Part shown: positions 3,295 to 50,561 of the stretch, one piece after another
Layout: each line of letters begins with the position of its first letter
Numbering within the stretch: position 1 is the first letter of the stretch
DNA from: an uncultured bacterium
Lineage (GTDB): Bacteria; Fidelibacterota; Marinisomatia; Marinisomatales; UBA1611
Reading direction: 5' to 3'
NCBI GenBank assembly: GCA_964511215.1
Contig: CAZEER010000002.1
Coordinates: forward strand, 1-59,494
Length of the DNA: 59,494 nt
Notes under the pieces: model-generated
What the model was told of the DNA's origin: nothing
The model's database searches: none
Seen by the model: only the letters and a program-made list of their open reading frames with translations
Position numbers and translations under genes: made by a program

Positions 3295-3302
3295 AAAATT
3301 TA

Positions 3303-10363: not shown

Positions 10364-10458
10364 ATAAATAAAAAATCTACCAGGAGTGATCTATAAATAA
10401 AAAAGTAATAGTTAGTGGTGGTGCTGGTTTTATTGGCAGCCACTTAGTAGATGCACTA

Positions 10459-22227: not shown

Positions 22228-22725
22228 ATGCCTGAAATAATAAAAAATAATGAAGATTTACTTTTTATTAATGATGAACTTGTTGATAAAATTAAAATGG
22301 AATCACAAAAATCAGATAGAAACATCGCGAGGTTATTAATGCATAAAAGCCATGATGATTTAGTCCAAGAAATGTTAATTGCGATGTGTAAAGATAGTTG
22401 TATAATCCCAAATAGATGTGAAGGTAAATCAGAATCTTTGCAAATTATTGAAGGCAGATTATTAATAGTTATATTTGATGAATGTGGGGTTCCTATCAAA
22501 AAAGTTGAGATGAGCCAATTTGGGTCAGGTAAAGTATCTCTCTACAGGATGTCATCAACACCTTGGCATACAATGATTCCTCTTTCAAATAGCGTTGTTG
22601 TTCATGAGGTCATAGAGGGTCCGTTTTCCAACGTATCTGATCCAATTCCTGACTGGATTCCAAATGATCATGGGAAATTAGCATCATTTATACGCGATTT
22701 AAAAATAAATGCGATTGAACCTTAA
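22228..22725 (+). CDS. WbuC-type cupin-fold protein (metal-site histidines replaced)
   Basis: AGGAG SD upstream. Aligns with the 23939 paralog (EMLI, ES..IIEG, HT.I, VHE..EGPF), but the HxH position reads NRC. Confidence 0.65.
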   Translation: MPEIIKNNEDLLFINDELVDKIKMESQKSDRNIARLLMHKSHDDLVQEMLIAMCKDSCIIPNRCEGKSESLQIIEGRLLIVIFDECGVPIKKVEMSQFGSGKVSLYRMSSTPWHTMIPLSNSVVVHEVIEGPFSNVSDPIPDWIPNDHGKLASFIRDLKINAIEP

Positions 22726-37797: not shown

Positions 37798-38381
37798 ATA
37801 ATAAAATTTCATTTGAAGTACATGATTTGGAATGTGAATTTAGAGCGTTGACTAAGGATGATATTTGCAAAGATTATATAAATGGTTTGAAGGAAGAAGA
37901 AGGAGGAGGATATATCCAGAATATTCCCTCTGGATTGAGTGTTGAGACTCAGAAAAAATATATTAAATCCATACTTTTAAGTAAGCATAATGCTATTAAT
38001 GGTATTTTCGTGGATGGGAAACTAGTGGGTACAGCTGGGATCCAAACTGATACTAATTTTAACAAAGTTATTGATAAGCCTTTAGTCTCAATTGCAACAA
38101 TCGGAATCTTAATTTTCAATAGTGAATATCGTGGACTAGGATTAGGAAGTATACTTGTTTGGGCATCAATAATCTTGGCAGATAATTGTATAGGAGTTCA
38201 GTGGTTTGGAGCAGCAATGGATAAGTGCAATTTAAAATCTTTAAGATCCTTTTTATCATGTGGTTTTAGAAAAATTCATGAAAGAGGTAATCACGTAAGA
38301 GTGTTGCTAGAATTTCAGGAATTAATTAAGCCCTGTTCTATAAAAAATATAACAATCAATGGTGAAAAATTAAATGAATAG
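37788..38381 (+). CDS. GNAT-family N-acetyltransferase
   Basis: Motif A YRGLGLGSILV. Confidence 0.65.
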   Translation: MVLNNKISFEVHDLECEFRALTKDDICKDYINGLKEEEGGGYIQNIPSGLSVETQKKYIKSILLSKHNAINGIFVDGKLVGTAGIQTDTNFNKVIDKPLVSIATIGILIFNSEYRGLGLGSILVWASIILADNCIGVQWFGAAMDKCNLKSLRSFLSCGFRKIHERGNHVRVLLEFQELIKPCSIKNITINGEKLNE

Positions 38382-38434
38382 CGGAAAATATATTTGTCAA
38401 GAGTAACCAACCAGATTATCAAAAAATTAATCTT

Positions 38435-40459
38435 ATGACTTTAGCTATTATTCAAGCCCGAGTTGGTTCCAGTCGTTTATGGGGAAAAGTATTAAAAAAA
38501 ATTGATGGTATTTCATTAATTGAGTTACTATTAAAACGCTTATCACAATCAGAAAAAGTTGATAAAATTATTGTGGCTACCAGCATAAATGTTGAAAATG
38601 ATTTATTATCAAAACTAGTAAAAGATCTAGGCTTTGATGTTTTTAGAGGTAGTGAGGAGGATGTCCTTGATAGATATTTTAATGCTGCAAAATTATTCAA
38701 TCCTTCAGCAATCATAAGAATAACGGGAGATTGCCCATTAATCGATCATTCAATAGTTGATTCAATGATTGAATGTTATTATGAAAATAAAGTTGATTAC
38801 TTAAGTAATATTGATCCTCCAACATACCCAGATGGTTTGGATATAGAAATATTTTCGTTTAAAGCTCTGAAAGTTGCATTTAATAATGCAACAAAACCAT
38901 ATGAAAGAGAACATGTAACCCCTTATATTCGAAAAAGTAAATCTCTAAAATTGTTGAACTTTTTTTATGAATCAGATCATTCACAAAAGAGGTGGACTGT
39001 TGATGATATGGACGACTTTGAGGTTGTGGAAAAAATTTTTAAACATTTTAATTATAATTATAATGTTTCTTGGACAGATGTATTACAACTTAGTACAACT
39101 AACCCTGAATATTTTTTTAAAAATAAATACTCACTTAGAAATCAAGGTTCAAAAATGAGTAAAGGAGAAAAGCTATATAAAAGGGCAAAAAAGATTATAC
39201 CTGGAGGCACAAGTTTATTGTCTAAGCGTCCTGAAATGTTTCTTCCTGATTTTTGGCCGACTTATTTTAGTAAAGCTAAGGGTGTTAATGTGTGGGATTT
39301 AGATTCTAAGAAATATATTGATATGTCTATAATGGGTATTGGTACTAACATTCTTGGGTATGGACATCTGGGTGTGGACAATGCAGTAAGGGAAGTAATA
39401 AATAAGGGTAACATGTCAACATTAAATTGTCCAGAAGAGGTCGAATTAGCAGAACGTTTAATTGCATTACACCCCTGGGCTGATATGGTGAGGTTCGCAC
39501 GTACAGGAGGAGAGGCTAATGCAATGGCTATTAGGATTGCTAGAGCAGCGTCAGGGAAAGACAAAGTTGCGGTATGTGGGTACCATGGATGGCATGACTG
39601 GTACCTAGCAGCAAACCTCAATGAAGATAATAACTTGGATGGACATTTGATTCCAGGGTTAATACCAAATGGTGTTCCTAAAGCCTTACAAGGTTCAGTA
39701 GTCCCATTTGAATATAATAACTTTAATAACTTAGAGGAAATTACGAATACAAATGATATTGGAATCATTAAAATGGAAGTGTCACGAACTATTGGTCCTG
39801 AGGCCGGCTTTTTGGAATCTGTTCGTAAACTAGCTGATGAAAAGAATATTATATTGATTTTTGACGAATGCACATCAGGTTTTAGAGAAACATTTGGTGG
39901 ATTACATAAAAAATTTAATGTAAATCCAGATATCATGATGTTGGGTAAAACGCTTGGTAATGGCTATGCAATTACTACTGTTTTAGGGAGAGAGGAAATA
40001 ATGAAGTACGCCCAAGATACCTTTATTAGTAGCACCTTTTGGACAGAGCGAATTGGTCCAGTAGCAGCACTACAGTCTCTTAAAGAAATGGAAAAAGAGA
40101 AATCTTGGGAAAAAATTACAAAAACTGGTGAGGTAATTGTTAAAAAATGGAAAGTACTTGCAAATAAATACCAACTCCCAATAACCATCACTGGTTTACC
40201 AGCTTTATCCTCTTTTACCTTCCCATTGAAAAATTGGCTTAAATATAAAACTTTTATAACCCAAGAAATGTTGAATAAAGGCTATTTAGCATCAAATAGT
40301 ATATATACCTCAATTGAGCATAAAAATGATATTATTGTTGAATATTTTAGTAACTTGGATCCTGTTTTTGGAATGATTGCGGATTGTGAAAATGGTCGAG
40401 ATATTGATGAATTATTAAAAGGGCCAATATGCCATGAGGGCTTTAAGAGGTTAAATTGA
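38435..40459 (+). CDS. fusion: SpsF/PseF-like cytidylyltransferase domain (aa 1-240) + class-III aminotransferase, glutamate-1-semialdehyde aminomutase-like (aa 241-674)
   Basis: LAIIQARVGSSRLWGKVL and ITGDCPLID (CTP_transf_3 type). Then IPGGTSLLSKRP, TGGEANAMAIRIARA, DECTSGFR, MLGKTLGNG (PLP lysine). An in-frame ATG at 39155 marks the junction, with no stop between the domains. Confidence 0.75.
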   Translation: MTLAIIQARVGSSRLWGKVLKKIDGISLIELLLKRLSQSEKVDKIIVATSINVENDLLSKLVKDLGFDVFRGSEEDVLDRYFNAAKLFNPSAIIRITGDCPLIDHSIVDSMIECYYENKVDYLSNIDPPTYPDGLDIEIFSFKALKVAFNNATKPYEREHVTPYIRKSKSLKLLNFFYESDHSQKRWTVDDMDDFEVVEKIFKHFNYNYNVSWTDVLQLSTTNPEYFFKNKYSLRNQGSKMSKGEKLYKRAKKIIPGGTSLLSKRPEMFLPDFWPTYFSKAKGVNVWDLDSKKYIDMSIMGIGTNILGYGHLGVDNAVREVINKGNMSTLNCPEEVELAERLIALHPWADMVRFARTGGEANAMAIRIARAASGKDKVAVCGYHGWHDWYLAANLNEDNNLDGHLIPGLIPNGVPKALQGSVVPFEYNNFNNLEEITNTNDIGIIKMEVSRTIGPEAGFLESVRKLADEKNIILIFDECTSGFRETFGGLHKKFNVNPDIMMLGKTLGNGYAITTVLGREEIMKYAQDTFISSTFWTERIGPVAALQSLKEMEKEKSWEKITKTGEVIVKKWKVLANKYQLPITITGLPALSSFTFPLKNWLKYKTFITQEMLNKGYLASNSIYTSIEHKNDIIVEYFSNLDPVFGMIADCENGRDIDELLKGPICHEGFKRLN

Positions 40460-40662
40460 AAAAAAGAAAAAATAAAGATTTGCAATATTATCTAGATATT
40501 ATTGATCAAATTGAAAAGGTGAGGACAAAAAATAATGTCAATTGGATGGATCTACTCCGACTCGCATTTATTCATGCTCCAGATGAAGCAAAATTATTAA
40601 TGAAGAAAATTGATCATGACGATAATCAGATTTCGAGATTAGTAAAAAAGCTTTCAGAATAA
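40456..40662 (+). CDS. hypothetical small protein (68 aa)
   Basis: TTGA overlap with the upstream gene and a tight fit between neighbours. No family recognised. Confidence 0.4.
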   Translation: MKKRKNKDLQYYLDIIDQIEKVRTKNNVNWMDLLRLAFIHAPDEAKLLMKKIDHDDNQISRLVKKLSE

Positions 40663-40675
40663 TTTTATAGAATTA

Positions 40676-41167
40676 ATGATTAAGACTGATAATTCTTTTA
40701 AGCTCAGAAATGTATATAACTCAGATAAAAATCAATTATTTGAGTGGGCGAATGATATTGAAACAAGAAAGTGGTCTTTCCATTCTGAGGCTATTACGGT
40801 ATTAGAACATAAAAAATGGTTTAATAGTAAATATATTGATAAAAATGTGATATTATGGATATTTGAATACGAAAACACTTCTTCAGGGTTAGTGAGGTTA
40901 GAAAAATACAATGGGAAAGTTATTCTTCACTATCAAATAGCTCCAGAAATGAGAGGGAAAAAATTGGCGAGTGTTATGCTAGGGGAAGCATTAAAAAAAT
41001 TAAAAAAATGCTGGTTGGAAAATGAAGTGTATGCATTTACATATCCTGAGAATTTAGCATCAATTAAATCTTTGAAAAAAGCTGGCTTCAATCTCTTTAG
41101 TGATGATGGAGGCAAACATTGTTATCTTTATAGATGGAGTAACAAGATTAAAATAGAACAAAAATGA
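40676..41167 (+). CDS. pseH: GNAT N-acetyltransferase, PseH-like
   Basis: LFEWANDIETRKWSF...EHKKWF N-terminal pattern and MRGKKLASVML motif A. Position directly before pseI. Confidence 0.6.
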   Translation: MIKTDNSFKLRNVYNSDKNQLFEWANDIETRKWSFHSEAITVLEHKKWFNSKYIDKNVILWIFEYENTSSGLVRLEKYNGKVILHYQIAPEMRGKKLASVMLGEALKKLKKCWLENEVYAFTYPENLASIKSLKKAGFNLFSDDGGKHCYLYRWSNKIKIEQK

Positions 41168-42210
41168 TACACATTGGTAATCAAAAAATAGGTCTAGATC
41201 AGAAACCTTTTGTGATAGCGGAAATGTCAGGGAATCATAATCAATCATTGGAAAAAGCTTTGAAAATTACCGAGGCAATAGCTAGGTGTGGAGCAGATGC
41301 AATCAAACTTCAAACTTATACTGCAGATACATTGACGCTTGATATAAAAGAGAATGAATTTCTAATAAAAGATGAAAAAAGTATTTGGAAAGGAAAGGCG
41401 CTATATGATTTATATAAGGGTGCCTACACACCGTGGGATTGGCATGAGCCTATTATGCATAAAGCAAATGATCTTGGTCTAATGTGTTTTAGTACTCCAT
41501 TTGATGAAACAGCAGTAGATTTTCTTGAGGATTTAAACGTTCCGGCCTACAAAATTTCATCTTTTGAAAATATACATTTACCCTTAATTAAAAAAGTTGT
41601 TTCAACAGGAAAACCTATTATTATATCAACTGGTATGGCTAGTCTTTCTGATATTGAAGAAATAACAAATATTTTAAAATATGGTTCAATTGATAACTTT
41701 GTATTATTGAAATGTTCAAGTACATATCCTGCTGCCACTAAAGACAGCAATGTAATTACTATACCCTATATGCGAAAACTATTTTCATGTGAGGTTGGTT
41801 TATCAGATCATACTTTAGGTCTTGGTGCTTCTATAGCTGCTATAGCTCATGGTGCGACTGTAATTGAAAAACACTTTACCTTATCAAGAGATGATGGAGG
41901 TGTAGATGCTGCTTTTTCAATGGAGCCTGAAGAAATGAAACAATTAATTACTGAATTAAATCGTGCTTGGGAGTCTCTTGGTGATGTTAATTTTGGTCCA
42001 ACAGAAAATGAAAAAAACTCACTGCAGTTTCGACGATCCTTGTACATTTCAGAGGATATAAAAAATGGTGAACTACTAAATGAAAAAAACCTAAGAATAA
42101 TTAGGCCGGGTTTAGGTCTCCATCCAAAGTTTTTTGATATTATTTTGGGTATGAAGGTAAACCGTGATGTGAAGAAAGGAACCCCAGTTAGTTGGGATTT
42201 AATCAGGTAA
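41164..42210 (+). CDS. pseI: pseudaminic acid synthase (NeuB family with C-terminal SAF domain)
   Basis: PFVIAEMSGNHNQSLEKA, IKLQTYTADTLT, YKISSFE, GLSDHTLG, IEKHFTLSR. ATGA overlap. Confidence 0.85.
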   Translation: MIHIGNQKIGLDQKPFVIAEMSGNHNQSLEKALKITEAIARCGADAIKLQTYTADTLTLDIKENEFLIKDEKSIWKGKALYDLYKGAYTPWDWHEPIMHKANDLGLMCFSTPFDETAVDFLEDLNVPAYKISSFENIHLPLIKKVVSTGKPIIISTGMASLSDIEEITNILKYGSIDNFVLLKCSSTYPAATKDSNVITIPYMRKLFSCEVGLSDHTLGLGASIAAIAHGATVIEKHFTLSRDDGGVDAAFSMEPEEMKQLITELNRAWESLGDVNFGPTENEKNSLQFRRSLYISEDIKNGELLNEKNLRIIRPGLGLHPKFFDIILGMKVNRDVKKGTPVSWDLIR

Positions 42211-42263: not shown

Positions 42264-43505
42264 ATGAAACCAAAATTATCGGCTAAAGCAAACAAGTTCA
42301 AAAGATCAATTTCACCGGTAAGACAAATAATGAGCTATGCAGATCCTAACTATGTGAAAAGTATCGGAATAAATCCAGATCATTTAATTTCATTTGCTGG
42401 TGGCTGGGTAAACCATAAAGGTCCAAAAGAGTTACAAAGAGCTTATGAAGAAATTACTGTAAATAGTGAATTATTTCATCAATCTGGTGGTTATCCTCCT
42501 ACACTAGGAAATCTTGAGTTCAAAAAAGCTGTTATTGATTTCGAAAAATGCATATATGGCATGGATGATCTTGATGAAAATCAAATTGCTGTTGGGTTAG
42601 GATCTACACAACTGGCTATGGATTTATTAGAAGTTATTCTTAATCCTGGTGACAAGATTCTATTACTAGATCCATCATACTGTAATTACCCCACTCAAGT
42701 CATTACCGGTATTTTAGATGCAAGCATTTTACGTTTTCCTGTGTTAGATAATAGTACTTGGGAATATTTACCAGATACCATAATAAATCAATTCCATGAA
42801 TTTATACTAGAAAACAGACCAAAAATGATATTGTTAATATCGCCAGATAATCCTACTTCAAAAGTATTATCTAATAAATTTGTTACTGCTGCACTAGAAG
42901 CTGCAATTGAAATTGGTAGTTTTCTTGTTATTGATTTTGCTTATAAGGAAATTGTTTTTGATGAAGCATATCCTAAATACTACTCGTGGGGACCAAATGA
43001 TAATTTTATTTCCTTAAGATCTAACTCTAAGTGGTGTCGTGGGTTAGGTCGTCGATTGGGGTGGGTGGAAGCACCTGATTATGTGGTTGAATCAATGGAA
43101 TCTATTCAGAATTCTACAATATTGTGCCCAGACATGTTGCACCAGATGGCAATGACCAGCTATATCAAAACAGCTATAAACAATAATACATTGCTGACCT
43201 ATATCAAGGATATTAATAAACAGTATCAAACTGCCGCTAGACAAACTGTAGCGTCTATTAACAAAAACCTTGGTTTGCCTATATTAGAACCAGAAGGTGG
43301 TTTGTATACATGTATGAAAGTTAGTTGTGATGGCGGGAAGTTTGTTGATGATATGTTGAAAAATACTGGAGTATTATTTATACCTGGCTGGGGTTTTGGT
43401 AGATCAGTTAAGAATGCAGTAAGGATTTCATATGGCCCCCTAGTTAATGACATTGAAAAAATCAGTGTTGGTTTTAAAAGAGTTGCAGACTATTTAAACA
43501 AATGA
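42264..43505 (+). CDS. class I/II (aspartate-aminotransferase fold) PLP-dependent aminotransferase
   Basis: LDPSYCNYP, SPDNPTS, LRSNSKWCRGLGRRLGW (SxSK PLP-lysine motif). Confidence 0.8.
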   Translation: MKPKLSAKANKFKRSISPVRQIMSYADPNYVKSIGINPDHLISFAGGWVNHKGPKELQRAYEEITVNSELFHQSGGYPPTLGNLEFKKAVIDFEKCIYGMDDLDENQIAVGLGSTQLAMDLLEVILNPGDKILLLDPSYCNYPTQVITGILDASILRFPVLDNSTWEYLPDTIINQFHEFILENRPKMILLISPDNPTSKVLSNKFVTAALEAAIEIGSFLVIDFAYKEIVFDEAYPKYYSWGPNDNFISLRSNSKWCRGLGRRLGWVEAPDYVVESMESIQNSTILCPDMLHQMAMTSYIKTAINNNTLLTYIKDINKQYQTAARQTVASINKNLGLPILEPEGGLYTCMKVSCDGGKFVDDMLKNTGVLFIPGWGFGRSVKNAVRISYGPLVNDIEKISVGFKRVADYLNK

Positions 43506-44434
43506 GAAAAGTGTTAATAACTCGTCGGTTACCAAATATAGCAGAAAATATTCTTTCTAATAGCTTCGAGGTTAATCAAATAAAAGAGAATAAGCCGTTG
43601 AATCGTGAAAAATTAATCAGTGCAGTGCAAAAATATGATGCAATTTTGAGTACAGTGACCGAAAAATTTGATAGAACTGTATTATCAAAGAGTAAAAGAC
43701 TAAAGGTTATTTCAAATTATGCAGTTGGTCTAGATAACATTGACCGTGGCTTTGCTCAATCATTAGGTATAACAACATATAATACTCCAGATTCAGTAAC
43801 GAATAGTACTGCTGATCATACTTTGGCTTTATTATTATCATTGATTAGAATGATTCCTGCTGCGATGAAGTATGTGAAAAATGATAAATGGGAAATGTGG
43901 GATCCTGAAATATTTTTAGGAGAAGAATTAACAGGTAAGACATTAGGGATAATTGGTTTTGGTAAAATTGGACAGGCTGTAGCGCGCAGGGCTATAGGGT
44001 TCGGGTTAAAAATAGTTTACAATAATCATTCAATAAAAAATGTAGATCCTGCAATTCAACCATTTGTTAAGTCTTTAAAATTTAATGAAGTACTGCAAAG
44101 TGCAGATTATCTATCCTTGCACTTGCCTTTAACACATAAGACAAAAGAAATAATAAATAAGACAACGATTATGAAAATGAAAAAAAAGCCGATACTCATT
44201 AATATGGCTAGAGGAGACATTGTTAAAACAGATGATTTAGTTGAAGCTTTGAAATCCGGAAAAATTAGAGGCGCTGGACTTGATGTAACTTCTCCGGAAC
44301 CGCTTTCTGGTGATAATCCATTATGTCATCTAAACAATTGCATTGTAGTTCCCCACATAGGGACAGCTACTCAAGAATGCCGTAATAATATGGCGCGGTT
44401 AGCTGCTCAGAATATAATTAACCACTTTTATTAA
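43502..44434 (+). CDS. D-isomer-specific 2-hydroxyacid dehydrogenase (glyoxylate/hydroxypyruvate reductase-like)
   Basis: GKTLGIIGFGKIGQAVARRA, NMARGDIV, LDVTSPEP, PHIGTAT. ATGA overlap. Confidence 0.85.
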   Translation: MRKVLITRRLPNIAENILSNSFEVNQIKENKPLNREKLISAVQKYDAILSTVTEKFDRTVLSKSKRLKVISNYAVGLDNIDRGFAQSLGITTYNTPDSVTNSTADHTLALLLSLIRMIPAAMKYVKNDKWEMWDPEIFLGEELTGKTLGIIGFGKIGQAVARRAIGFGLKIVYNNHSIKNVDPAIQPFVKSLKFNEVLQSADYLSLHLPLTHKTKEIINKTTIMKMKKKPILINMARGDIVKTDDLVEALKSGKIRGAGLDVTSPEPLSGDNPLCHLNNCIVVPHIGTATQECRNNMARLAAQNIINHFY

Positions 44435-44444
44435 GATTAGCATT

Positions 44445-44702
44445 ATGAATGATGAACAGATTATTAAAAAATTGTCTGATATTTTTATTGATACTTTAGA
44501 TGTTACAAAATTTGAATTGAGTATAACAATGGATGAAATCCCTGAATGGGACTCATTGAAACATCTTCAGTTACTTTCATCCATTGAAGAGACTTTTGGA
44601 ATTGAAATACAATTTGAAGATGCATTAGAAATGATTTCAGTGAAATCAATAATGAGTAAAATAAAAAAGTATGTTGCGAAAGGTAAAAGTAATGATTTAT
44701 AA
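44445..44702 (+). CDS. acyl carrier protein
   Basis: 85 aa; phosphopantetheine site context EWDSLKHLQLL. Confidence 0.75.
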   Translation: MNDEQIIKKLSDIFIDTLDVTKFELSITMDEIPEWDSLKHLQLLSSIEETFGIEIQFEDALEMISVKSIMSKIKKYVAKGKSNDL

Positions 44703-46299
44703 AAATTTTTTGCTACCGCATCAGTTGATTAAGAATGATATTAATATACTTTACAAAAATATAGGAGAACTTTATGCTACAAAAGCAAATGAAACGCCAG
44801 ATAAAATATTTCTTATATGCCCAGGAAAACAAAAGGATACATTTTCATATAATAGTTTTAAGAATAAATATCTATTAGTTGCAAAGTATTTAACTCAGTT
44901 AGGGTTAACTAAAGGAAATCGATTCAATCTTATTTTCTCCAATTCACCTGAATTTTTATTATTTTATTTTGCTGGTTTGACCCTTGGTATTACGGTAGTT
45001 CCAATTAATCCAGATATTGCCCCTGAAGAAATGAAATATGTTATTGAGAATAGTCAATCAAAAGCTGTATTCTATCAATCAGAGTTGCATTTTAAAATAG
45101 AACAAATAATGAATAGTATTTCATCTAACGTTATCGTAAAAGCCATGCAACATATACCTGATTTTGAACCTTTAAAATTAAGTGATTTAGATGTTAAGAA
45201 ATTATCTATCCCAGAAATAGAATTAATAGATGAAGCTGTTATTATTTATACATCAGGCACTTCAGGTAATCCTAAAGGTGTGGTTTTATCACATTTAAAC
45301 CTGTTAGCTGATGCAAAAGCGATCTCAGAGTGGTTTCAATTCTCTACGGAGACTCGCACTTTATGCATCCTACCACTTTTTCATAATAATGGGCAAATAA
45401 CAACTTTTCTGGCGCCCCTTTATGCAGGTGGATCAACTGTAATTGTCAAAGGCAAAGCCAGCTTGATATCTTTCTGGGGTTTAGTTGAAAAATATAAAGC
45501 TTCTTGGACAAGTGTAATGGCATCGATCCTTTCTATTTTATTAAGCCTTCCAATAAAGAGAAAAGATAAAACACTTCAAGGTATTCTTTGTGGAGGACAA
45601 AAATTAACAAAAACAGCACAAGAAAAATTCGAAAGTAGGTTTGGAGTACCAATTTTTGAAGGTTATGGGCTTACTGAAACAACATCATTTTCATGCATAA
45701 ATAACTATCCTGAAAAAAAAAGGAAAATTGGTTCGATTGGAAAACCATTGCCAATAAATGAAATGAATATATTAGATAAAAATGGGAAAGAATTAGGGCC
45801 GAATATTGAAGGAGAAATATGCATACGTGGTTACAATGTAGCTTGTGAATACCTTGGTTTAATTGAGAAGAATAAGGAATCCTTTTCTAATGGTTGGTTT
45901 CACAGTGGTGATTATGGCAGGAAAGATGAGGATGGTTATTTTTATTTTCACGGAAGGAAAGATTCTCTAATTATTAAAGGAGGTGAAAATATATATCCCG
46001 CTGAATTGGAGAATGTTATATATAAACATCCCGCTGTTGCCGAGTGTGCAGTAATAGGAGTACCGGATCAATTATTAGGTGAGGATATCTGTGCTTTTGT
46101 TAAGTTTAATGAGAATACACGCGTTTCTAAACAAGAATTAAAAGATTTTTGTAAAGATAAAATAGCTGCTTATAAGCAGGCAAAAAGTATTATTATTATT
46201 GATGAATTAACAGATTTAGATGAAATACCAAAAGGTCCAACTAAAAAAATTCTTTACAGAAAACTTCAAAAATATTATACCAATAAGACTGAAATATAA
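44692..46299 (+). CDS. AMP-dependent acyl-CoA/acyl-ACP synthetase (adenylate-forming ligase)
   Basis: IIYTSGTSGNPKGVVLSH, GYGLTET, GWFHSGDYG, PKGPTKKILYR. The ORF opens at 44671; ATG 44692 (MIYKNF) overlaps the ACP stop by 11 nt and seems more likely. Confidence 0.85.
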   Translation: MIYKNFLLPHQLIKNDINILYKNIGELYATKANETPDKIFLICPGKQKDTFSYNSFKNKYLLVAKYLTQLGLTKGNRFNLIFSNSPEFLLFYFAGLTLGITVVPINPDIAPEEMKYVIENSQSKAVFYQSELHFKIEQIMNSISSNVIVKAMQHIPDFEPLKLSDLDVKKLSIPEIELIDEAVIIYTSGTSGNPKGVVLSHLNLLADAKAISEWFQFSTETRTLCILPLFHNNGQITTFLAPLYAGGSTVIVKGKASLISFWGLVEKYKASWTSVMASILSILLSLPIKRKDKTLQGILCGGQKLTKTAQEKFESRFGVPIFEGYGLTETTSFSCINNYPEKKRKIGSIGKPLPINEMNILDKNGKELGPNIEGEICIRGYNVACEYLGLIEKNKESFSNGWFHSGDYGRKDEDGYFYFHGRKDSLIIKGGENIYPAELENVIYKHPAVAECAVIGVPDQLLGEDICAFVKFNENTRVSKQELKDFCKDKIAAYKQAKSIIIIDELTDLDEIPKGPTKKILYRKLQKYYTNKTEI

Positions 46300-46334
46300 T
46301 TGTCTGAACGAAAAAATATTAAACTAAAAAATAA

Positions 46335-47144
46335 ATGCTGGATGTGAAGAAATCGATTGAAGAAGTATTAAAAAAAATAGGTATAGAAGAAGGTGATATT
46401 GTTCTTATACATTCAGATTCTACGGCAATTAAGAAAATTACTGGTTTACAGTGGGCAAGAGTATTGAATTTAATTAATGATTGTTTTATAAATATGATAG
46501 GGGAGAGTGGAACACTTATAGTACCAACATTTAATTGGGATTTCTGTAAGGGCAAGACTTATTCTCACAAAACAACTCCATCTCAAGTAGGGATGTTTTC
46601 CAATTATGTGCTTTTTAATAAAAATTCCATACGTTCTTTGCATCCAATATATTCATTTGCTGGTATTGGGCCGGCAGCAAAAGATATTTTTTCAAATATT
46701 TCAAAGTCATCTTATGGGAAAAATTCTGTTTTTCATAAACTTCATCAAAAGAATGCGAAAATCATTTCATTTTGTATTGATCCCAATATTATGGGTAGGG
46801 GTTATACAACCACCTTTATACATTATGTTGAGCAAATGAAATCGATTGATTATCGGTTCATAAAGCATTTTAGTGGCACGGTTAATCTGGGTGATATAGA
46901 ATATGATGACATTTTTGATTTATATGTTCGTTTTAAAGATGATCCTGTGGAACTTGACGGGAAGAAGATTCTCCACCAATTGCTAAATACCAGAAAATTA
47001 AAAAGAGAATTTATTGATGATATATATCCCGTAAGTCAGATTAGCTGTAATGACTTATATGATGAGATAATGAAAATGCTTTATGAAGCTCCATATTCAT
47101 TACTTCAAAATCCACCTAAAAAATCTCAAAGGAGTGTGAACTGA
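46335..47144 (+). CDS. AAC(3)-fold (aminoglycoside 3-N-acetyltransferase family) N-acyltransferase
   Basis: GDIVLIHSDSTAI...GESGTLIVPTFNWDF pattern of the Antibiotic_NAT fold; 269 aa. Confidence 0.65.
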   Translation: MLDVKKSIEEVLKKIGIEEGDIVLIHSDSTAIKKITGLQWARVLNLINDCFINMIGESGTLIVPTFNWDFCKGKTYSHKTTPSQVGMFSNYVLFNKNSIRSLHPIYSFAGIGPAAKDIFSNISKSSYGKNSVFHKLHQKNAKIISFCIDPNIMGRGYTTTFIHYVEQMKSIDYRFIKHFSGTVNLGDIEYDDIFDLYVRFKDDPVELDGKKILHQLLNTRKLKREFIDDIYPVSQISCNDLYDEIMKMLYEAPYSLLQNPPKKSQRSVN

Positions 47145-47146
47145 TT

Positions 47147-48319
47147 ATGAATCTAATTTTGGAAGAATGTCGGGTATGTAAAGGCCAAAAAACCTACAAG
47201 CATTCCCTGACATCCTCTCTTCCCGTTTATATATGGCCATTGCCACAAGCTAAGGAGAATCTATTTCTTGATGCTGGTCTGTTCATCTGTGATGATTGTA
47301 GCCATGTTCAGTTGCAGTCGCTAGATGATACCTTGATTAATTCCTTCTATGAAGATGAATATTTCGTTCTTGAAGATAATGTCCTAGATCTAGATAGAGT
47401 CGACTTGCTTATTTCGGTATTCGGAAAAGAAATGTTGGAAGGCGCTAAATTTCTTGATATAGGTGGGGGCAACAATCCCTTTGCCGAACCACTGAGTGTC
47501 CGAGGGGTTAGCTCTGAAAGCTGGGTTGTGGATATTAATCCCAAACCCTCTGCTGCCGAAAAAGCGACCCAAATTGTTACCGGGCGGTTCGAGGATGTGC
47601 CCTTACCAAATGGATATTTCAATTTTGTTACCTCTTTTTTATCTATGGAGCATTTCAATTATCCTCCAGCGGTGGTTGCACGGATGGCGGAGGTTTTGCA
47701 GCCCGGTGGTCTAGCGGTGATCGAAGTGCCCAATCTTACAGGATTGATAGACTTAATTCCGCATTATCTGGTCTTCCACCAGCATGTCAGCATTTTTTCT
47801 ATCGGCGCACTTGACAGTCTATTCAGTCTTCACGGGTTTCGGCGTCAGACTATTCTTCGGGAAGACCATTCGATCATGGTGGCCTATGAAAATGTACACG
47901 CTCCCAGAAAACTATGTGTTCCTACCATTGACCCAAAAGCAGAACTAGACAGGTTTCGTTCTCGCATGCGACAAATTGACGAGGATCTCAAGAAATTGAA
48001 CTTTACCTCAAAATTGGGTGGTCTTGGTCTTTATAGTGCCGGTGGCAGTAGCAGCTTGTTTCTCGCTAATTTTCCTTGGCTGAGGGAATATCTGTCATTG
48101 GTATTCGATAGGGATGAGCGTAAGCAGGGTCGAATAGTCCCTGGAACAGATTTGGTTATTCTACCTCCGGAAAAAATAAAATCATCTGGTATAGATAAAC
48201 TCCTGTTTATTGATTCTGCCATTTACGATAATGTGGCTCCGGGCTTATCCATTGATTGCGTCAATCTTTCCCCTTATCTAGTAGCTTCCGTTGATCATAG
48301 AAAGGGAAACTCACATTAA
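47147..48319 (+). CDS. C-methyltransferase-like protein, paralog 3 (Zn-ribbon + SAM MTase), higher-GC gene
   Basis: CRVCKGQ...CDDCSHVQ; FLDIGGGNNPF; LAVIEVPN. About 45% GC versus under 30% for its neighbours. Confidence 0.65.
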   Translation: MNLILEECRVCKGQKTYKHSLTSSLPVYIWPLPQAKENLFLDAGLFICDDCSHVQLQSLDDTLINSFYEDEYFVLEDNVLDLDRVDLLISVFGKEMLEGAKFLDIGGGNNPFAEPLSVRGVSSESWVVDINPKPSAAEKATQIVTGRFEDVPLPNGYFNFVTSFLSMEHFNYPPAVVARMAEVLQPGGLAVIEVPNLTGLIDLIPHYLVFHQHVSIFSIGALDSLFSLHGFRRQTILREDHSIMVAYENVHAPRKLCVPTIDPKAELDRFRSRMRQIDEDLKKLNFTSKLGGLGLYSAGGSSSLFLANFPWLREYLSLVFDRDERKQGRIVPGTDLVILPPEKIKSSGIDKLLFIDSAIYDNVAPGLSIDCVNLSPYLVASVDHRKGNSH

Positions 48320-48456
48320 TTAGAATGATATAACATGATCAGATTTTTAAGTGAATCCATTTTAGCTATGAATAAATGTGTTATAATTAATTCAGATGAA
48401 ATGTTACATGAAAGATTAATACAGGAAATAAACATAATTTTATAAAGGAGAATATC

Positions 48457-49122
48457 ATGACAAAGGAATATTTGTATAATCGTTTTGAACTTACTGAAGA
48501 ATATAAAAATGACATTATAGAAATGCTTCGTTATAATACCAATGTAGAAATTGGTGGTCATAGGATCTTTGATGGCCAGAGAACGCACCTGATGCAAAGT
48601 CCATGGGAACTTGCTGATTTTATTTTTGAATTGAAAAAGCATGAAATAAATACAGGACATAAATTAAGTTCATTCTTAGAAGTTGGATTTTCATCAGGCA
48701 TAAACAATTCGGTACTAAATAAGTTTTTTAATTTTAAGCATATAGTTGGTTTAGATTATTTTGCATCATCAATTAATGCAGATTGTCTTCTCGGGAATAT
48801 GATTTATAAAAACCTTACTTTAATCTGTGGTAATACTCAATCAAGTTATGTAATAGATTTAGCAAATAAGCTTGGTCCTTACGATTTAATATTTATTGAT
48901 GCTGAACACACGTACGAAGGTATTAAAGCGGATTTCAACAATTATTTACCAATGCTATCGGATAATGGAGTAATAGGATTTCATGATGTAGAATGTCCTG
49001 ATTGGCCAGGAATAAATAAATTTTGGAATGAGCTCGAAAGCACCAATAAATACAATATGAAAAAATTTGTAAAAAAGGGGTTTCTATTACAATACGGTAT
49101 AGGAATGCTAACGGAAAAATGA
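48457..49122 (+). CDS. class I SAM-dependent methyltransferase (Methyltransf_24/CmcI-like)
   Basis: AAGGAG SD. LEVGFSSG, DLIFIDAEHTYEGIKADF, NGVIGFHD. Confidence 0.7.
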   Translation: MTKEYLYNRFELTEEYKNDIIEMLRYNTNVEIGGHRIFDGQRTHLMQSPWELADFIFELKKHEINTGHKLSSFLEVGFSSGINNSVLNKFFNFKHIVGLDYFASSINADCLLGNMIYKNLTLICGNTQSSYVIDLANKLGPYDLIFIDAEHTYEGIKADFNNYLPMLSDNGVIGFHDVECPDWPGINKFWNELESTNKYNMKKFVKKGFLLQYGIGMLTEK

Positions 49123-49340
49123 TTTATGCATAGCCAACTAGGTAAACATCATATTTGAATTAAAATAATTTCTAAAGAAATACTTTCTCTAGGAGAAAAT
49201 ATTGCAAAAAATTTCATACTGAAACCAATTACGAGGAACCAATTACTATAAAACAGTCTAATTTCAATGATATAGGAAAGACGCTTCATTCATGGGCCCA
49301 AGATTTATTCCCCATCTGCAGGAGCATCACTGGCCCCGGG

Positions 49341-50561
49341 GTGAGGGAGACCTTAAAATATATTCAAGATATATTACCAGAATTAAAAATATATTCTGTT
49401 TCTTCTGGAGCTCAAGCTTTTGACTGGACTGTCCCGAATGAGTGGATTATTCATGATGCTTTCATTGCAGATGAGTCCGGTAAAAGAATCGTCGATTATC
49501 AGAAACATAATCTGCACATTTTGGGTTACTCTGAACCGGTGGACAAGTGGCTAACATTGGATAAACTTGACTCACATTTGTTTTCACTTCCGGATCAGCC
49601 CAATGGGATTCCTTATGTAACATCCTATTATGAAAGACGATGGGGGTTTTGCTTGACCCACAATCAACGAAAAACTCTACAACCTGGAAACTACCATGTT
49701 GTGATAAATTCAGATTTGAAACCCGGGATAATGAATTACGGGGAGTTGATACTTCCTGGAGATTCAGTTAAGGAAGTCTTTCTTTCAACCTACATCTGCC
49801 ATCCATCCATGGCCAACAATGAACTTTCCGGGCCTGTTGTAACCACAGCATTGGCGCGGTGGTTATCATCTTTAGAAAGGAGACGTTATACCTACCGAAT
49901 TGTCTTCATACCTGAAACGATTGGATCTATTGTCTACCTGAGCAGAAACCTTGATCATCTGAAACAGCATGTCATTGCCGGTTTCAATATTACCTGTATT
50001 GGAGACGATCGCTGTTATTCCTACCTACCATCGCGGGATGGCAACACGTTCTCAGATAGAGCTGCTTTGCATGTACTAATGCATATTGATCCAGAATTTA
50101 ATCGTTACACCTGGTTGGATCGGGGCAGTGACGAACGCCAGTACTGTGCACCGGGGATAGATCTTCCTATTGCTACAATCATGCGTAGTAAATACGGAGA
50201 GTACCCTGAATACCATACTTCTTTGGATGATTTGAGCCTGGTAACATCATCAGGACTGGAAGGAGGTTTTACAGCGCTGAAGAAAACACTCGAGATCATA
50301 GAGAAAAATGTCTGTCCAAAAACTACAGTATTGGGAGAACCACAGTTGGGTAAACGAGGACTTTACCCAAAGCTTAGCACCAAAACCTCTGGAGAACAAG
50401 TTCGCGCCATGATGAATCTGATTTCTTATTGTGATGGTCAGAATAGCCTTTTGGAAATTGCTGAATTGATCGAAGAACCTTTTTGGGAACTAGCCCCGAT
50501 AGTGGAAAAACTGGTTGATAATGGCCTTTTATCGGTTAATACAACCAAAGGAGAAAGTTGA
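49341..50561 (+). CDS. DUF2172/DUF4910 aminopeptidase-like (M28-fold) protein with a C-terminal winged helix; N-terminus extends upstream of any canonical start
   Basis: FDWTVPNEW, HNLHILGYSEP, CHPSMANNELSGP, and C-terminal GQNSLLEIAELIEEP wHTH. The conserved LFPICRSITGPG is encoded in frame at 49305-49340, before the GTG at 49341. In-frame stop at 49173. Confidence 0.65.
   Translation: MRETLKYIQDILPELKIYSVSSGAQAFDWTVPNEWIIHDAFIADESGKRIVDYQKHNLHILGYSEPVDKWLTLDKLDSHLFSLPDQPNGIPYVTSYYERRWGFCLTHNQRKTLQPGNYHVVINSDLKPGIMNYGELILPGDSVKEVFLSTYICHPSMANNELSGPVVTTALARWLSSLERRRYTYRIVFIPETIGSIVYLSRNLDHLKQHVIAGFNITCIGDDRCYSYLPSRDGNTFSDRAALHVLMHIDPEFNRYTWLDRGSDERQYCAPGIDLPIATIMRSKYGEYPEYHTSLDDLSLVTSSGLEGGFTALKKTLEIIEKNVCPKTTVLGEPQLGKRGLYPKLSTKTSGEQVRAMMNLISYCDGQNSLLEIAELIEEPFWELAPIVEKLVDNGLLSVNTTKGES

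What the first reader, a model, noticed from the sequence alone, without database searches (positions are those of the whole stretch)
42264..47144. Self-contained ACP-dependent N-acylation cassette next to the pseudaminic-acid genes
Five consecutive genes form the cassette. They encode a class I/II aminotransferase, a D-2-hydroxyacid dehydrogenase (glyoxylate/hydroxypyruvate reductase-like), an 85-aa ACP (WDSL site), an adenylate-forming ligase and an AAC(3)-fold N-acyltransferase. One coherent reading runs as follows. An amino acid is transaminated to its 2-oxo acid and reduced to a D-2-hydroxy acid, for example serine to hydroxypyruvate to D-glycerate. The product is adenylated, loaded on the ACP and transferred to a free amino group of a sugar. 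With pseB/C/I immediately upstream, the target is likely N5 or N7 of the nonulosonic acid. Glyceroyl, hydroxybutyryl and similar N-acyl variants of Pse/Leg sugars are known chemically, and three methyltransferase genes follow downstream. The specific acyl group and acceptor are speculation.
Basis: inference. Interest (0 to 1): 0.6.

Follow-up and report, generated by a model that had tools for sequence, protein, structure and literature searches.

The report
Carrier-protein acyl-swap cassette for pseudaminic acid
Next to its pseudaminic-acid genes, an uncultured marine bacterium carries eight genes that most likely make a small hydroxy-acid (probably glycerate), load it on a carrier protein and put it on the sugar in place of an acetyl group, which gives a testable genetic basis for N-glyceroyl sugars whose origin is unknown.

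Summary
The five genes are real and correctly named. They are not a self-contained unit. They are the front of an eight-gene block (42264-50561) built from two reusable modules.

Module A is the aminotransferase, a glyoxylate/hydroxypyruvate-reductase-type dehydrogenase, the ACP and the ligase. Aminotransferase and dehydrogenase homologues share contigs at least 25 times. One relative encodes dehydrogenase, ACP and ligase as a single ORF in the window's gene order.

Module B is the AAC(3)-fold acyltransferase, two methyltransferases and a DUF4910 protein. DUF4910 is the family of Campylobacter jejuni Cj1295, which is needed for N5-(di-O-methylglyceroyl)-pseudaminic acid. In 160 related loci the acyltransferase sits beside a DUF4910 gene: 80 of 88 well-flanked loci, with 10 fusions. 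An ACP and Pse/NulO genes are often nearby.

The window's acyltransferase falls in a clade whose members have FkbH-ACP upstream, and FkbH makes glyceryl-ACP. Here FkbH is absent and module A stands in its place.

Best reading: serine to hydroxypyruvate to D-glycerate to glyceroyl-ACP, then N-acylation of Pse, probably O-methylated. All of this is inference and nothing is biochemically shown. The scan met related cassettes before on other DNA (e1-930359, e1-766585). This is a new variant of a predicted, uncharacterised kind.

The parts
42264..43505 (+). Class I/II PLP aminotransferase (413 aa). Proposed to make the 2-oxo acid, for example serine to hydroxypyruvate.
   Evidence: Pfam PF00155, E 2e-32. 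The nearest structures are archaeal aromatic/aspartate aminotransferases. It belongs to a highly conserved family, 57-90% identical in more than 120 clusters including archaea. Its hit list shares at least 25 contig lengths with the dehydrogenase list. It was not found in 60 relatives or in 400 genomes of the phylum.
43502..44434 (+). D-2-hydroxyacid dehydrogenase of the GHRB (glyoxylate/hydroxypyruvate reductase) type (310 aa).
   Evidence: NCBIfam glyoxylate reductase, E 8e-91. Closest PDB entries are 5aov, 2dbq and human GRHPR 2gcg/2h1s, E 6e-74 to 1e-60. It keeps the Arg/Glu/His triad, the Trp141 equivalent (W133) and the Arg-x-x-Met motif. It has Gly-Thr where others have Gly-Ser (criteria from PMC6303947).
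44445..44702 (+). Stand-alone acyl carrier protein (85 aa) with a W-D-S-L phosphopantetheine site.
   Evidence: Translation. PP-binding scores 20.3 bits against a 20.8 cut-off. Relatives are mostly 75-85-aa ACPs, and some are fused to a ligase or to a dehydrogenase plus ligase. Two PPTase genes are present elsewhere in the genome.
44692..46299 (+). Adenylate-forming ligase (535 aa from ATG 44692; the ORF opens at 44671). Proposed hydroxy-acid:ACP ligase.
   Evidence: AMP-binding plus AMP-binding_C. The closest structures are oxalate-CoA ligases 5ie0/6qjz (E 1e-74), then FadD13 and MenE. The ACP-ligase fusion proteins P0347, P0338 and P0392 align from its first residues.
46335..47144 (+). AAC(3)-fold (Antibiotic_NAT) acyltransferase (269 aa). 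Proposed ACP-dependent amino-sugar N-acyltransferase.
   Evidence: Pfam PF02522, 86.6 bits. It is far below the AAC(3) resistance cut-offs, 52 against 270 bits. The fold is confirmed. 160 related loci show the DUF4910 partner, the ACP and the NulO genes. In the tree it sits in an FkbH-ACP clade.
47147..48319 (+). SAM methyltransferase with a C-methyltransferase-type C-terminal domain (390 aa), with higher GC than its neighbours.
   Evidence: Pfam Methyltransf_23 plus Methyltransf_14. It has a weak match to the sugar 3-C-methyltransferase 4rv9. GC is 43.3%, against about 31% for neighbouring genes. It lies between the acyltransferase and its usual direct neighbour, DUF4910.
48457..49122 (+). 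Methyltransf_24-type (TylF-related) methyltransferase (221 aa).
   Evidence: Pfam PF13578, E 3e-12. A 44%-identical homologue sits next to a TylF-like O-methyltransferase in the DUF4910-acyltransferase locus of a Nitrosarchaeum MAG (L041).
49242..50561 (+). DUF4910/DUF2172/HTH_47 protein of the Cj1295 and CA_C2195 family. It is the near-obligate partner of the acyltransferase and the proposed de-N-acetylase or adaptor.
   Evidence: Pfam, 310 bits. Match to PDB 3k9t, E 3e-100. There is no ATG/GTG/TTG before a conserved N-terminal block. A GAGGA motif at 49233-49237 is followed by ATT 49242 and ATA 49248. The same sequence occurs in the independent contig L082. GC is 41.9%.
34765..42210 (+). Context: the pseudaminic-acid genes (PseB, PseC, an aldo-keto reductase, a GNAT, a cytidylyltransferase-aminotransferase fusion, a PseH-like GNAT, PseI) that supply the presumed acceptor.
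   Evidence: PseB, PseC and PseI are above their NCBIfam equivalog cut-offs.

Best explanation
Genes 42264-50561 form a two-module system that replaces an N-acetyl group of pseudaminic acid with a small hydroxy-acyl group.

Module A, the hydroxy-acid loader:
- The aminotransferase converts an amino acid, most likely serine, to its 2-oxo acid (hydroxypyruvate).
- The GHRB-type reductase reduces that to the D-2-hydroxy acid (D-glycerate; glycolate from glycine/glyoxylate is the second choice).
- The ligase adenylates the acid and loads it on the 85-aa ACP.

Module B, the acyl swap:
- The AAC(3)-fold enzyme transfers the acyl group from the ACP to a free amino group of Pse or of a nucleotide-linked precursor.
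- The DUF4910 partner either frees that amino group by removing the acetyl or scaffolds the reaction. N5 is the likelier position, because its acetyl is inherited from UDP-GlcNAc.
- The two methyltransferases lying between these genes probably methylate the acyl hydroxyls, which would give an O-methylated glyceroyl group like the one on C. jejuni 11168 flagellin.

The genome has no flagellin or Maf gene, so the sugar probably goes into a capsule-type polysaccharide.

Shown here: gene content, folds, family placement, gene linkage and fusions. Inferred: every substrate, the use of acyl-ACP by the AAC(3)-fold enzyme, the role of DUF4910, and the acceptor nitrogen.
For: 1. Domains and fold.

2. 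Module A is a real unit.
- P0338 is a single ORF. It joins a dehydrogenase C-terminus (70% identical to the window's residues 230-309), an ACP (47%) and the ligase N-terminus (45%, from residue 1), in the window's gene order.
- P0347 and P0392 are ACP-ligase fusions.

3. The dehydrogenase is of GHRB type and keeps the residues tied to small substrates (glyoxylate, hydroxypyruvate) (PMC6303947).

4. The ligase is closest to the oxalate-CoA ligases, which take short polar acids.

5. Module B linkage.
- DUF4910 lies within 7 kb in 80 of 88 loci that have at least 3 kb of flank.
- It is within 300 nt in 79 of 120 loci.
- There are 10 acyltransferase-DUF4910 fusion ORFs.
- Among the 88 loci, an ACP is present in 41, a NeuB-type synthase in 30 and a PseB-like gene in 41.

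6. In the tree, the window's enzyme lies in a 12-row clade (SH-aLRT 98) made up mostly of FkbH-ACP-acyltransferase-DUF4910 loci.
- FkbH makes glyceryl-ACP (PMC7489565).
- FkbH and AMP-ligase co-occur in only 1 of 15 FkbH loci.
- FkbH was not found in this genome, and the positive control worked.

7. Methyltransferases, some TylF-like, recur in FkbH-type and Campylobacter versions.

8. Experiment in the literature.
- Cj1295 is required for Pse5(2,3-di-O-methylglyceroyl)7Ac (PMC3068675).
- N-glyceroyl Pse exists in Tannerella forsythia and its genes are unknown (PMC5378307).
- Free-amine CMP-nonulosonates have been detected (bioRxiv 10.64898/2026.04.20.719630).
Against: - No enzyme of either module has been assayed anywhere.
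- In C. jejuni 11168 the neighbouring N-acetyltransferase gene Cj1296/7 is out of frame while the di-O-methylglyceroyl sugar is still made (PMC3068675; cj1296 'consistently OFF', PMC13130089). So the acyltransferase may not be needed there. I also could not verify that Cj1296/7 is the AAC(3)-fold homologue.
- The crystal-structure paper on DUF4910 found no canonical metallopeptidase site, so an amidase role would need unusual chemistry (PMC4000134).
- Known serine:pyruvate/glyoxylate aminotransferases are class V as far as I recall, whereas this one is class I.
- The dehydrogenase has Gly-Thr, not the Gly-Ser motif linked to hydroxypyruvate preference.
- All characterised AAC(3)-fold enzymes use acetyl-CoA.
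- The first methyltransferase resembles sugar C-methyltransferases and, like DUF4910, has foreign GC content. It may act on the sugar instead of the acyl group.
- PseG was not found, so the Pse route itself is not canonical.
Confidence: 0.55

Rival explanations
1. The architecture is the same but the acyl group differs. It could be glycolyl (glycine to glyoxylate to glycolate), D-lactyl, D-malyl or D-2-hydroxyglutaryl instead of glyceroyl.
For: GHRB enzymes reduce glyoxylate as well as hydroxypyruvate and are promiscuous (PMC6303947). The ligase's nearest structures act on C2-C3 diacids. The aminotransferase's nearest structures are aspartate/aromatic enzymes. A possible N-glycolyl legionaminic acid has been reported (PMC5378307).
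Against: The acyltransferase sits in a clade fed by FkbH, whose product is glyceryl-ACP. The Trp141 equivalent and the Arg-x-x-Met motif argue against large substrates. GHRB enzymes usually reject pyruvate.
Confidence: 0.22
2. The pathway runs the other way and supplies an amino acid. A hydroxy acid is oxidised, transaminated to an unusual amino acid, adenylated and transferred as an N-aminoacyl group.
For: The gene content alone allows it. As far as I recall, N-aminoacyl decorations of nonulosonic acids are known. The aminotransferase's best NCBIfam neighbours include enzymes of non-proteinogenic amino-acid pathways, though all are far below their cut-offs.
Against: The ligase belongs to the acyl-CoA-synthetase branch, not to the amino-acid-adenylating enzymes. 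The dehydrogenase, not the aminotransferase, is the enzyme fused directly to the ACP and ligase. GHRB enzymes act as reductases in most cases. The acyltransferase clade is otherwise fed by FkbH.
Confidence: 0.08
3. The acceptor is not pseudaminic acid but another amino sugar of this large polysaccharide locus, or the acyl group goes to N7 at the UDP-4-amino-sugar stage in place of the PseH step.
For: The window holds two further DegT aminotransferases, C-methyltransferases and a formyltransferase upstream. In several related loci the acyltransferase-DUF4910 pair sits next to other dehydratase/reductase genes and no NeuB-type synthase. T. forsythia carries its glyceroyl at N7.
Against: The cassette starts 53 nt after pseI. 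51 of 88 well-flanked loci have PseB-like or NeuB genes within 7 kb. The only experimental link of the DUF4910 family is to N5 of Pse. Two GNAT genes in the Pse block can cover the PseH step.
Confidence: 0.12
4. There is no dedicated function. The genes are housekeeping serine/glycerate and fatty-acid enzymes plus an aminoglycoside-resistance acetyltransferase that happen to be adjacent.
For: Automatic names in the databases read glyoxylate reductase, aspartate aminotransferase, long-chain-fatty-acid-CoA ligase and aminoglycoside 3-N-acetyltransferase.
Against: None reaches its equivalog cut-off. The aminotransferase gene was not found in 60 relatives or in 400 genomes of the phylum. Fusions tie the dehydrogenase, ACP and ligase together. 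The acyltransferase is tied to DUF4910 and to glycan genes in 160 loci.
Confidence: 0.03

Closest known systems
Campylobacter jejuni NCTC 11168 flagellin-glycosylation genes around Cj1295, which give Pse5(2,3-di-O-methylglyceroyl)7Ac (Logan 2009; Hitchen 2010, PMC3068675)
   Same: A Cj1295-family (DUF4910) gene lies beside Pse genes. A Campylobacter relative (C. gastrosuis, L072/L075) has DUF4910, AAC(3)-fold acyltransferase, AMP-ligase, a small ORF, a second acyltransferase and a methyltransferase. Glycerate-derived, O-methylated N-acyl chemistry is the best fit here too.
   Different: No flagellin or Maf gene was found in this genome, so the target is probably a polysaccharide. Here the acyl supply is an aminotransferase, a GHRB reductase and a ligase. 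I could not compare with the C. jejuni sequences themselves. In 11168 the adjacent acetyltransferase gene is phase-OFF while the sugar is still made.
DUF4910/CA_C2195 gene neighbourhoods (Das et al. 2014, PMC4000134; PDB 3k9t)
   Same: The window's protein matches 3k9t at E 3e-100. That paper already noted linkage, and some fusions, with an aminosugar N-acetyltransferase, an ACP, methylases and NeuB-type genes.
   Different: That work assigned no function and did not describe the hydroxy-acid loader. It also did not describe the alternation between FkbH and the ligase, or the identity of the acyltransferase as an AAC(3) fold fed by an ACP.
FkbH-type glyceryl-ACP formation, as in methoxymalonyl-ACP and tetronate pathways (e.g. 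PMC7489565)
   Same: A stand-alone ACP carries a C3 hydroxy-acyl unit that can be O-methylated while tethered. The nearest relatives of the window's acyltransferase have FkbH-ACP directly upstream.
   Different: No FkbH gene was found in the window's genome. The proposed route starts from free glycerate made by transamination and reduction, and it uses ATP-dependent loading. The product goes to a sugar amine, not to a polyketide synthase.
AAC(3) aminoglycoside N-acetyltransferases, YokD and FrbF (Antibiotic_NAT fold)
   Same: The fold is the same (TM 0.73-0.77), and there is an invariant His/Glu pair (H163, E166) in the family alignment.
   Different: Identity is 13-20%. The score is far below the resistance-family cut-offs. 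The context is glycan biosynthesis, and the predicted donor is acyl-ACP, not acetyl-CoA.
Predicted ACP-dependent N-acylation of amino sugars in O-antigen loci, e.g. Flavobacterium psychrophilum wfpC-wfpG (PMC6519341)
   Same: A dedicated ACP plus acyl-building enzymes is followed by an N-acyltransferase acting on an amino sugar.
   Different: There the transferase is PglD-like (left-handed beta-helix), the acyl chain is built by ketosynthases, and the acceptor amine is made free by a transaminase, so no swap is needed.

Membership tests
Antibiotic_NAT / AAC(3) fold family (PF02522) | Pfam model matched above the gathering score over nearly its full length | tested here: met
   86.6 bits against a cut-off of 25, profile positions 1-228 of 232.
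Antibiotic_NAT / AAC(3) fold family (PF02522) | Three-dimensional fold of AAC(3), YokD and FrbF | tested here: met
   The model has pLDDT 93.3. Foldseek top hits are 6mb6, 7q1d, 3sma and 2nyg, with E down to about 3e-18 and TM 0.73-0.77.
AAC(3) aminoglycoside-resistance enzymes (NCBIfam NF033082 and related) | Score above the curated equivalog cut-off | tested here: not met
   52.5 bits against 270; 40.7 against 420; 28.2 against 480. It is not a member of the resistance families.
GHRB subfamily of D-2-hydroxyacid dehydrogenases | Closest relatives are GRHPR/GyaR, with the catalytic Arg-Glu-His, the Trp from the partner subunit and the Arg-x-x-Met motif | tested here: met
   5aov at E 6e-74 and human 2h1s at E 1e-60. 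R, E, H, W133 and R-N-N-M all align. The criteria come from PMC6303947. The NCBIfam glyoxylate reductase score is 305 bits, below the 455 cut-off.
GHRB subfamily of D-2-hydroxyacid dehydrogenases | Gly-Ser motif correlated with a preference for hydroxypyruvate | tested here: inconclusive
   The window has Gly-Thr at this position, so the hydroxyl is retained.
Type II acyl carrier protein | PP-binding domain with a D-S-L serine | tested here: inconclusive
   The W-D-S-L motif is present. Pfam gives 20.3 bits against 20.8, and NCBIfam 30.9 against 66. Homologues in related loci pass Pfam. About 1,000 relatives were found, most of the best-scoring ones 75-85 aa long.
ANL adenylate-forming enzymes that load a carrier protein | AMP-binding N- and C-domains | tested here: met
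   277 and 64.5 bits.
ANL adenylate-forming enzymes that load a carrier protein | The acceptor is a carrier protein, not CoA | not testable with these tools
   Supported only by ACP-ligase and dehydrogenase-ACP-ligase fusions in relatives and by the 11-nt overlap of the two genes.
Cj1295 / CA_C2195 family (DUF4910 + DUF2172 + HTH_47) | All three Pfam domains and similarity to 3k9t | tested here: met
   310.7, 128.9 and 88.6 bits. Match to 3k9t at E 3e-100 over residues 10-410.
C. jejuni di-O-methylglyceroyl-Pse system | Acts on flagellin glycan (Maf transferases and flagellin present) | tested here: not met
   No Flagellin_N match and no MAF_flag10 match above the cut-off in the 95%-complete genome.
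C. jejuni di-O-methylglyceroyl-Pse system | The product carries a 2,3-di-O-methylglyceroyl group at N5 of Pse | not testable with these tools
   This needs mass spectrometry or NMR of the glycan or of the CMP-sugar pool.
FkbH-type glyceryl-ACP supply | FkbH domain protein (TIGR01686) next to the ACP | tested here: not met
   None in the window's genome. The positive control found FkbH in the genomes of L025 and L002. The window works like these loci but is not a member.
Canonical pseudaminic-acid pathway (PseB, C, H, G, I, F) | All six enzymes recognisable | tested here: not met
   PseB, PseC and PseI are above their cut-offs. The PseH-like GNAT scores 36 against 93, and a cytidylyltransferase is present. 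PseG (TIGR03590) was not found in the genome.

The most novel reading that the evidence does not exclude
The window shows a second, FkbH-independent route to glyceroyl-ACP: serine to hydroxypyruvate to D-glycerate, then ATP-dependent loading by an oxalate-CoA-ligase-like enzyme. This route feeds the first acyl-ACP-dependent member of the AAC(3) fold. Together with DUF4910, that enzyme exchanges the GlcNAc-derived N5-acetyl of pseudaminic acid. If so, the two modules would be the long-sought genetic basis of N-glyceroyl (and perhaps N-glycolyl) nonulosonic acids, and of the function of DUF4910.
Probability: 0.35. Interest if true: 0.65.

Novelty: new variant of a known kind. Interest (0 to 1): 0.55.

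Why it matters
N-acyl variants of pseudaminic and legionaminic acids shape how bacterial surfaces are seen by phages, by lectins and by the immune system. For the glyceroyl variants the literature states that the enzymes are unknown (PMC5378307). The only genetic handle so far is Cj1295, a protein of unknown biochemistry.

This locus offers a compact, intact, eight-gene candidate. Every step in it can be tested with purified proteins.

The comparison across 160 loci shows that the acyltransferase-DUF4910 pair is a widespread acceptor-side module. It is fed by interchangeable donor modules: FkbH; ligase plus reductase; ketosynthase sets; and a LuxC/transketolase/radical-SAM set.

That modularity is useful for predicting glycan chemistry from metagenomes and for glyco-engineering. 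It also warns against annotating these AAC(3)-fold genes as aminoglycoside resistance.

Tried and rejected
I therefore could not fetch the contigs that carry homologues of the aminotransferase-dehydrogenase pair. I used identical 'longest contig' lengths in two hit lists as a proxy for co-location.
- The aminotransferase was sought in 60 relatives and in 400 genomes of the phylum: no orthologue. It was also sought in viral contigs: none.
- The promoter/terminator scan gave counts equal to the shuffles and no operon boundary.
- The methyltransferases could not be placed. One has only a weak hit to a sugar 3-C-methyltransferase and the other has no PDB relative.
- The protein atlas gave only generic aminotransferase clusters.
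- The plasmid search gave only distant AAC(3)-like hits.
- I considered and rejected aminoglycoside resistance, because the scores are below the cut-offs and the context is glycan biosynthesis. I rejected a long-chain fatty-acid ligase, because the closest structures are short-acid ligases and the gene is fused with or coupled to an ACP. I rejected an assembly error at the DUF4910 start, because the same sequence occurs in an independent contig.
- I could not obtain C. jejuni 11168 sequences. The equivalence of Cj1296/7 with this acyltransferase therefore rests on the published annotation and on the C. gastrosuis locus.

Full report
**Observation**

The window is a low-GC (about 31%) stretch in which every gene called here lies on the + strand. 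It is contig 2 of a 2.38-Mb, 95%-complete metagenome-assembled genome.

The five ORFs of the finding are present as described. They are a class I/II aminotransferase (42264-43505), a D-2-hydroxyacid dehydrogenase (43502-44434), an 85-aa carrier protein with a W-D-S-L site (44445-44702), an adenylate-forming ligase (ORF from 44671) and an Antibiotic_NAT/AAC(3)-family protein (46335-47144). PseB, PseC and PseI pass their NCBIfam equivalog cut-offs directly upstream, and pseI ends 53 nt before the aminotransferase gene.

Two details need correcting:
- Relatives in which an ACP is fused to the ligase align from the residues encoded at ATG 44692. The ligase therefore most likely starts there and overlaps the ACP stop codon by 11 nt.
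- Among the downstream genes scanned with Pfam, two are methyltransferases, not three (47147-48319 and 48457-49122).

**The acyltransferase and its partner**

An AlphaFold model of the 269-aa protein (pLDDT 93) superposes on AAC(3)-IIIb, AAC(3)-IIIa, FrbF and YokD at TM 0.73-0.77 with 13-20% identity. It scores far below the curated cut-offs of the resistance families. It has the fold, but it is not a resistance enzyme.

I collected 160 loci that encode relatives, 80 from species-representative genomes and 80 from metagenomes, and compared their neighbourhoods. The dominant neighbour is a DUF4910/DUF2172/HTH_47 protein:
- It lies within 7 kb in 80 of the 88 loci that have at least 3 kb of flank on both sides.
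- It lies within 300 nt in 79 of 120 loci.
- It is fused to the acyltransferase in ten ORFs of 585-750 aa.

These loci are not independent samples, so the counts describe the pattern and are not a test.

The window has such a gene at about 49242-50561 (310 bits; E 3e-100 to PDB 3k9t). It is separated from the acyltransferase only by the two methyltransferase genes. The 99%-identical metagenome contig L082 has the same order.

This is the family of C. jejuni Cj1295. Knocking out Cj1295 removes the 5-(2,3-di-O-methylglyceroyl) derivative of pseudaminic acid from flagellin (PMC3068675; PMC7099621). A structural-genomics paper had already noted that DUF4910 genes neighbour, and sometimes fuse with, an 'aminosugar N-acetyltransferase', an ACP and methylases. 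It assigned no function (PMC4000134).

Other frequent neighbours among the 88 well-flanked loci are an ACP (41), an AMP-ligase (26), a NeuB-type synthase (30) and a PseB-like dehydratase (41). 51 of the 88 have PseB-like or NeuB genes. For the acyltransferase it is not.

**What feeds the acyltransferase elsewhere**

Clustering the neighbours and naming the clusters shows interchangeable donor sets placed in front of ACP-acyltransferase-DUF4910:
- an FkbH-domain protein (TIGR01686, 277-292 bits; 15 loci);
- AMP-ligases;
- KSIII/FabG/acyltransferase sets;
- a conserved set of LuxC, FabA, radical SAM, FabG, split transketolase, ACP and PhyH.

FkbH and an AMP-ligase occur together in only 1 of the 15 FkbH loci. 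[quoted passage not shown]

In a maximum-likelihood tree of 142 acyltransferases, the window's protein lies in a 12-row clade (SH-aLRT 98). The other members with enough context are mostly FkbH-ACP-acyltransferase-DUF4910 loci (L002, L088, L090, L091). Three short contigs begin with the ACP, and the exception, L093, has a ketosynthase set and a ligase.

No FkbH was found in the window's genome, and a positive control on two FkbH-bearing genomes worked. So within a lineage of acyltransferases that is normally fed glyceryl-ACP, this locus has another set of genes where FkbH would be.

**The hydroxy-acid loader**

Those genes are the first four of the finding.

The dehydrogenase is closest to archaeal and human glyoxylate/hydroxypyruvate reductases (E 6e-74 to 1e-60). 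The 2HADH classification paper ties several residues to small substrates in the GHRB subfamily (PMC6303947). In the alignment the window's enzyme keeps these:
- the catalytic Arg/Glu/His;
- the tryptophan contributed by the partner subunit (human Trp141, here W133);
- the Arg-x-x-Met motif;
- a small hydrophobic residue (Val) at the Leu59 position.

The Gly-Ser motif that correlates with hydroxypyruvate preference is Gly-Thr here.

The ligase belongs to the acyl-CoA-synthetase branch. Its nearest solved structures are the oxalate-CoA ligases, followed by FadD13 and MenE. Nothing points to long chains or to amino-acid adenylation.

A search with the ACP against 1.8 billion representatives found mostly 75-85-aa stand-alone ACPs, but it also found informative longer proteins.
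- P0338 is a 374-aa fragment that lacks both protein ends. It joins, in one ORF, a dehydrogenase C-terminus 70% identical to the window's residues 230-309, an ACP (47%) and the first 190 residues of a ligase 45% identical to the window's. The order is that of the window's genes.
- P0347 and P0392 are ACP-ligase fusions.

The aminotransferase belongs to an unusually conserved family, 57-90% identical across bacteria and archaea. Its hit list shares at least 25 exact 'longest contig' lengths with the dehydrogenase's hit list, for example 28237, 21812, 31164, 17318, 168146, 1359727. The two genes therefore travel together. Almost none of these lengths appear in the acyltransferase list, so the loader also serves other acceptor modules.

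No orthologue of the aminotransferase was found in 60 relatives or in 400 genomes of the phylum. The cassette is strain-level accessory DNA.

**Mechanism proposed**

1. Serine is transaminated to hydroxypyruvate.
2. Hydroxypyruvate is reduced to D-glycerate.
3. D-glycerate is adenylated and loaded on the ACP. Two PPTase genes are present in the genome.
4. The AAC(3)-fold enzyme transfers the group to an amino group of Pse.

The N5-acetyl of Pse descends from UDP-GlcNAc (established pathway knowledge), so any other N5 group requires prior removal of the acetyl. That fits the obligatory second protein. It also fits the C. jejuni product, which is substituted at N5, and the recent detection of free-amine CMP-nonulosonates. 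I therefore favour N5, with DUF4910 as de-N-acetylase or scaffold.

The two methyltransferases sit exactly where the acyltransferase and DUF4910 are normally adjacent. Methyltransferases, some TylF-like, recur in FkbH-type loci and in the Campylobacter gastrosuis module. O-methylation of the glyceroyl hydroxyls is thus the simplest reading. O-methylation of an ACP-tethered hydroxy-acyl unit has precedent in methoxymalonyl-ACP synthesis.

The genome shows no flagellin and no Maf gene. The window holds a Wza-like exporter, an ABC transporter and other amino-sugar genes. The sugar is therefore probably part of a capsule-type polymer.

**Weak points**

- Every substrate is inferred.
- In C. jejuni 11168 the acetyltransferase gene next to Cj1295 is phase-OFF while the modified sugar is made. 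I could not check that this gene is the AAC(3)-fold homologue.
- The DUF4910 structure lacks a canonical metallopeptidase site.
- Serine aminotransferases are usually class V (my own knowledge).
- All characterised AAC(3)-fold enzymes use acetyl-CoA.
- The first methyltransferase has the architecture of sugar C-methyltransferases. Like DUF4910, it has 42-43% GC against 26-35% for its neighbours, so these two genes have a different history and may act on the sugar.
- PseG was not found.
- Glycolyl, from glyoxylate, is a serious alternative acyl group.

**Novelty**

The general idea has been predicted before: a dedicated ACP supplies an unusual N-acyl group to an amino sugar. The DUF4910/acetyltransferase/ACP neighbourhood was described in 2014. 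The scan itself has reported related cassettes on other DNA (e1-930359 in a CPR bacterium; e1-766585 in DPANN archaea).

New here:
- the evidence that a transaminase-reductase-ligase loader stands in for FkbH within one acyltransferase clade;
- the fused dehydrogenase-ACP-ligase as support;
- the quantified pairing of the AAC(3)-fold enzyme with DUF4910.

I rate it a new variant of a known, still uncharacterised kind. Interest is moderate. It makes an acknowledged open question, the genes for N-glyceroyl nonulosonic acids (PMC5378307), directly testable.

**Limits**

Contexts of the loader's homologues were therefore inferred indirectly.

Noticed in passing
window 49173-49343: The DUF4910 gene has no ATG/GTG/TTG upstream of a conserved N-terminal block (L-F-P-I-C-R-S-I-T-G). 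A GAGGA motif at 49233-49237 is followed by ATT 49242 and ATA 49248, which is where homologues begin. The independent contig L082 has the same sequence from 49163 to 49346, so this is probably a non-canonical start and not an error.
   Followed up: yes
window 47147-48319 and 49242-50561: The first methyltransferase and the DUF4910 gene have 43.3% and 41.9% GC (GC3 39% and 38%). Every other gene of the block has 26-35% GC (GC3 about 20-26%). The locus is a mosaic, with two genes of more recent or foreign origin.
   Followed up: partly
whole genome G000: No PseG (TIGR03590), no flagellin N-domain and no Maf (MAF_flag10 above the cut-off) were found in the 95%-complete genome. The Pse route seems non-canonical, and the sugar is unlikely to decorate flagella.
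   Followed up: partly
L137, L140, L146, L151, L155, L156 (marine metagenome contigs), about 2400-10800 in each: A conserved ten-gene variant reads LuxC, FabA, radical SAM/SPASM, FabG, split transketolase (N and C), ACP, PhyH dioxygenase, DUF4910, AAC(3)-fold acyltransferase. A 4,6-dehydratase-like gene and a GT2 follow. It presumably builds a quite different, elaborate N-acyl group.
   Followed up: no
L072:1991-7487 and L075:8880-14376 (Campylobacter gastrosuis): Two copies in one genome of a compact module: DUF4910, acyltransferase, AMP-ligase, a 75-aa ORF, a second acyltransferase, a 137-aa ORF and a methyltransferase. In L072 the module is flanked by housekeeping genes (formate-THF ligase, ABC-F, a two-component system), and no Pse genes were detected within about 10 kb of either copy.
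   Followed up: partly
L003-L007, L051, L053, L073, L097, L103: Single ORFs of 585-750 aa fuse the AAC(3)-fold acyltransferase to DUF4910. They occur in Anaerolineae, an Erysipelotrichaceae bacterium, a Deferribacterales MAG and others.
   Followed up: partly
window 36907-40459; L025:3068-6138; L103, L060, L064: An aldo-keto reductase, a CTP_transf_3 cytidylyltransferase and a class-III aminotransferase recur together beside Pse genes. In the window the last two are fused into one 674-aa ORF, while in Metabacillus arenae they are separate genes.
   Followed up: no
P0326 (884 aa) and P0341 (1127 aa): These proteins have 9 and 7 matched stretches to the window's ACP. They look like tandem arrays of this carrier-protein type.
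   Followed up: no
window 20302-21546 and 22709-23929: Two further TylC3/MtmC-type C-methyltransferase genes (zinc-binding domain plus Methyltransf_14) lie upstream, with two DegT aminotransferases and a formyltransferase. The locus therefore makes at least one other heavily tailored amino sugar.
   Followed up: no
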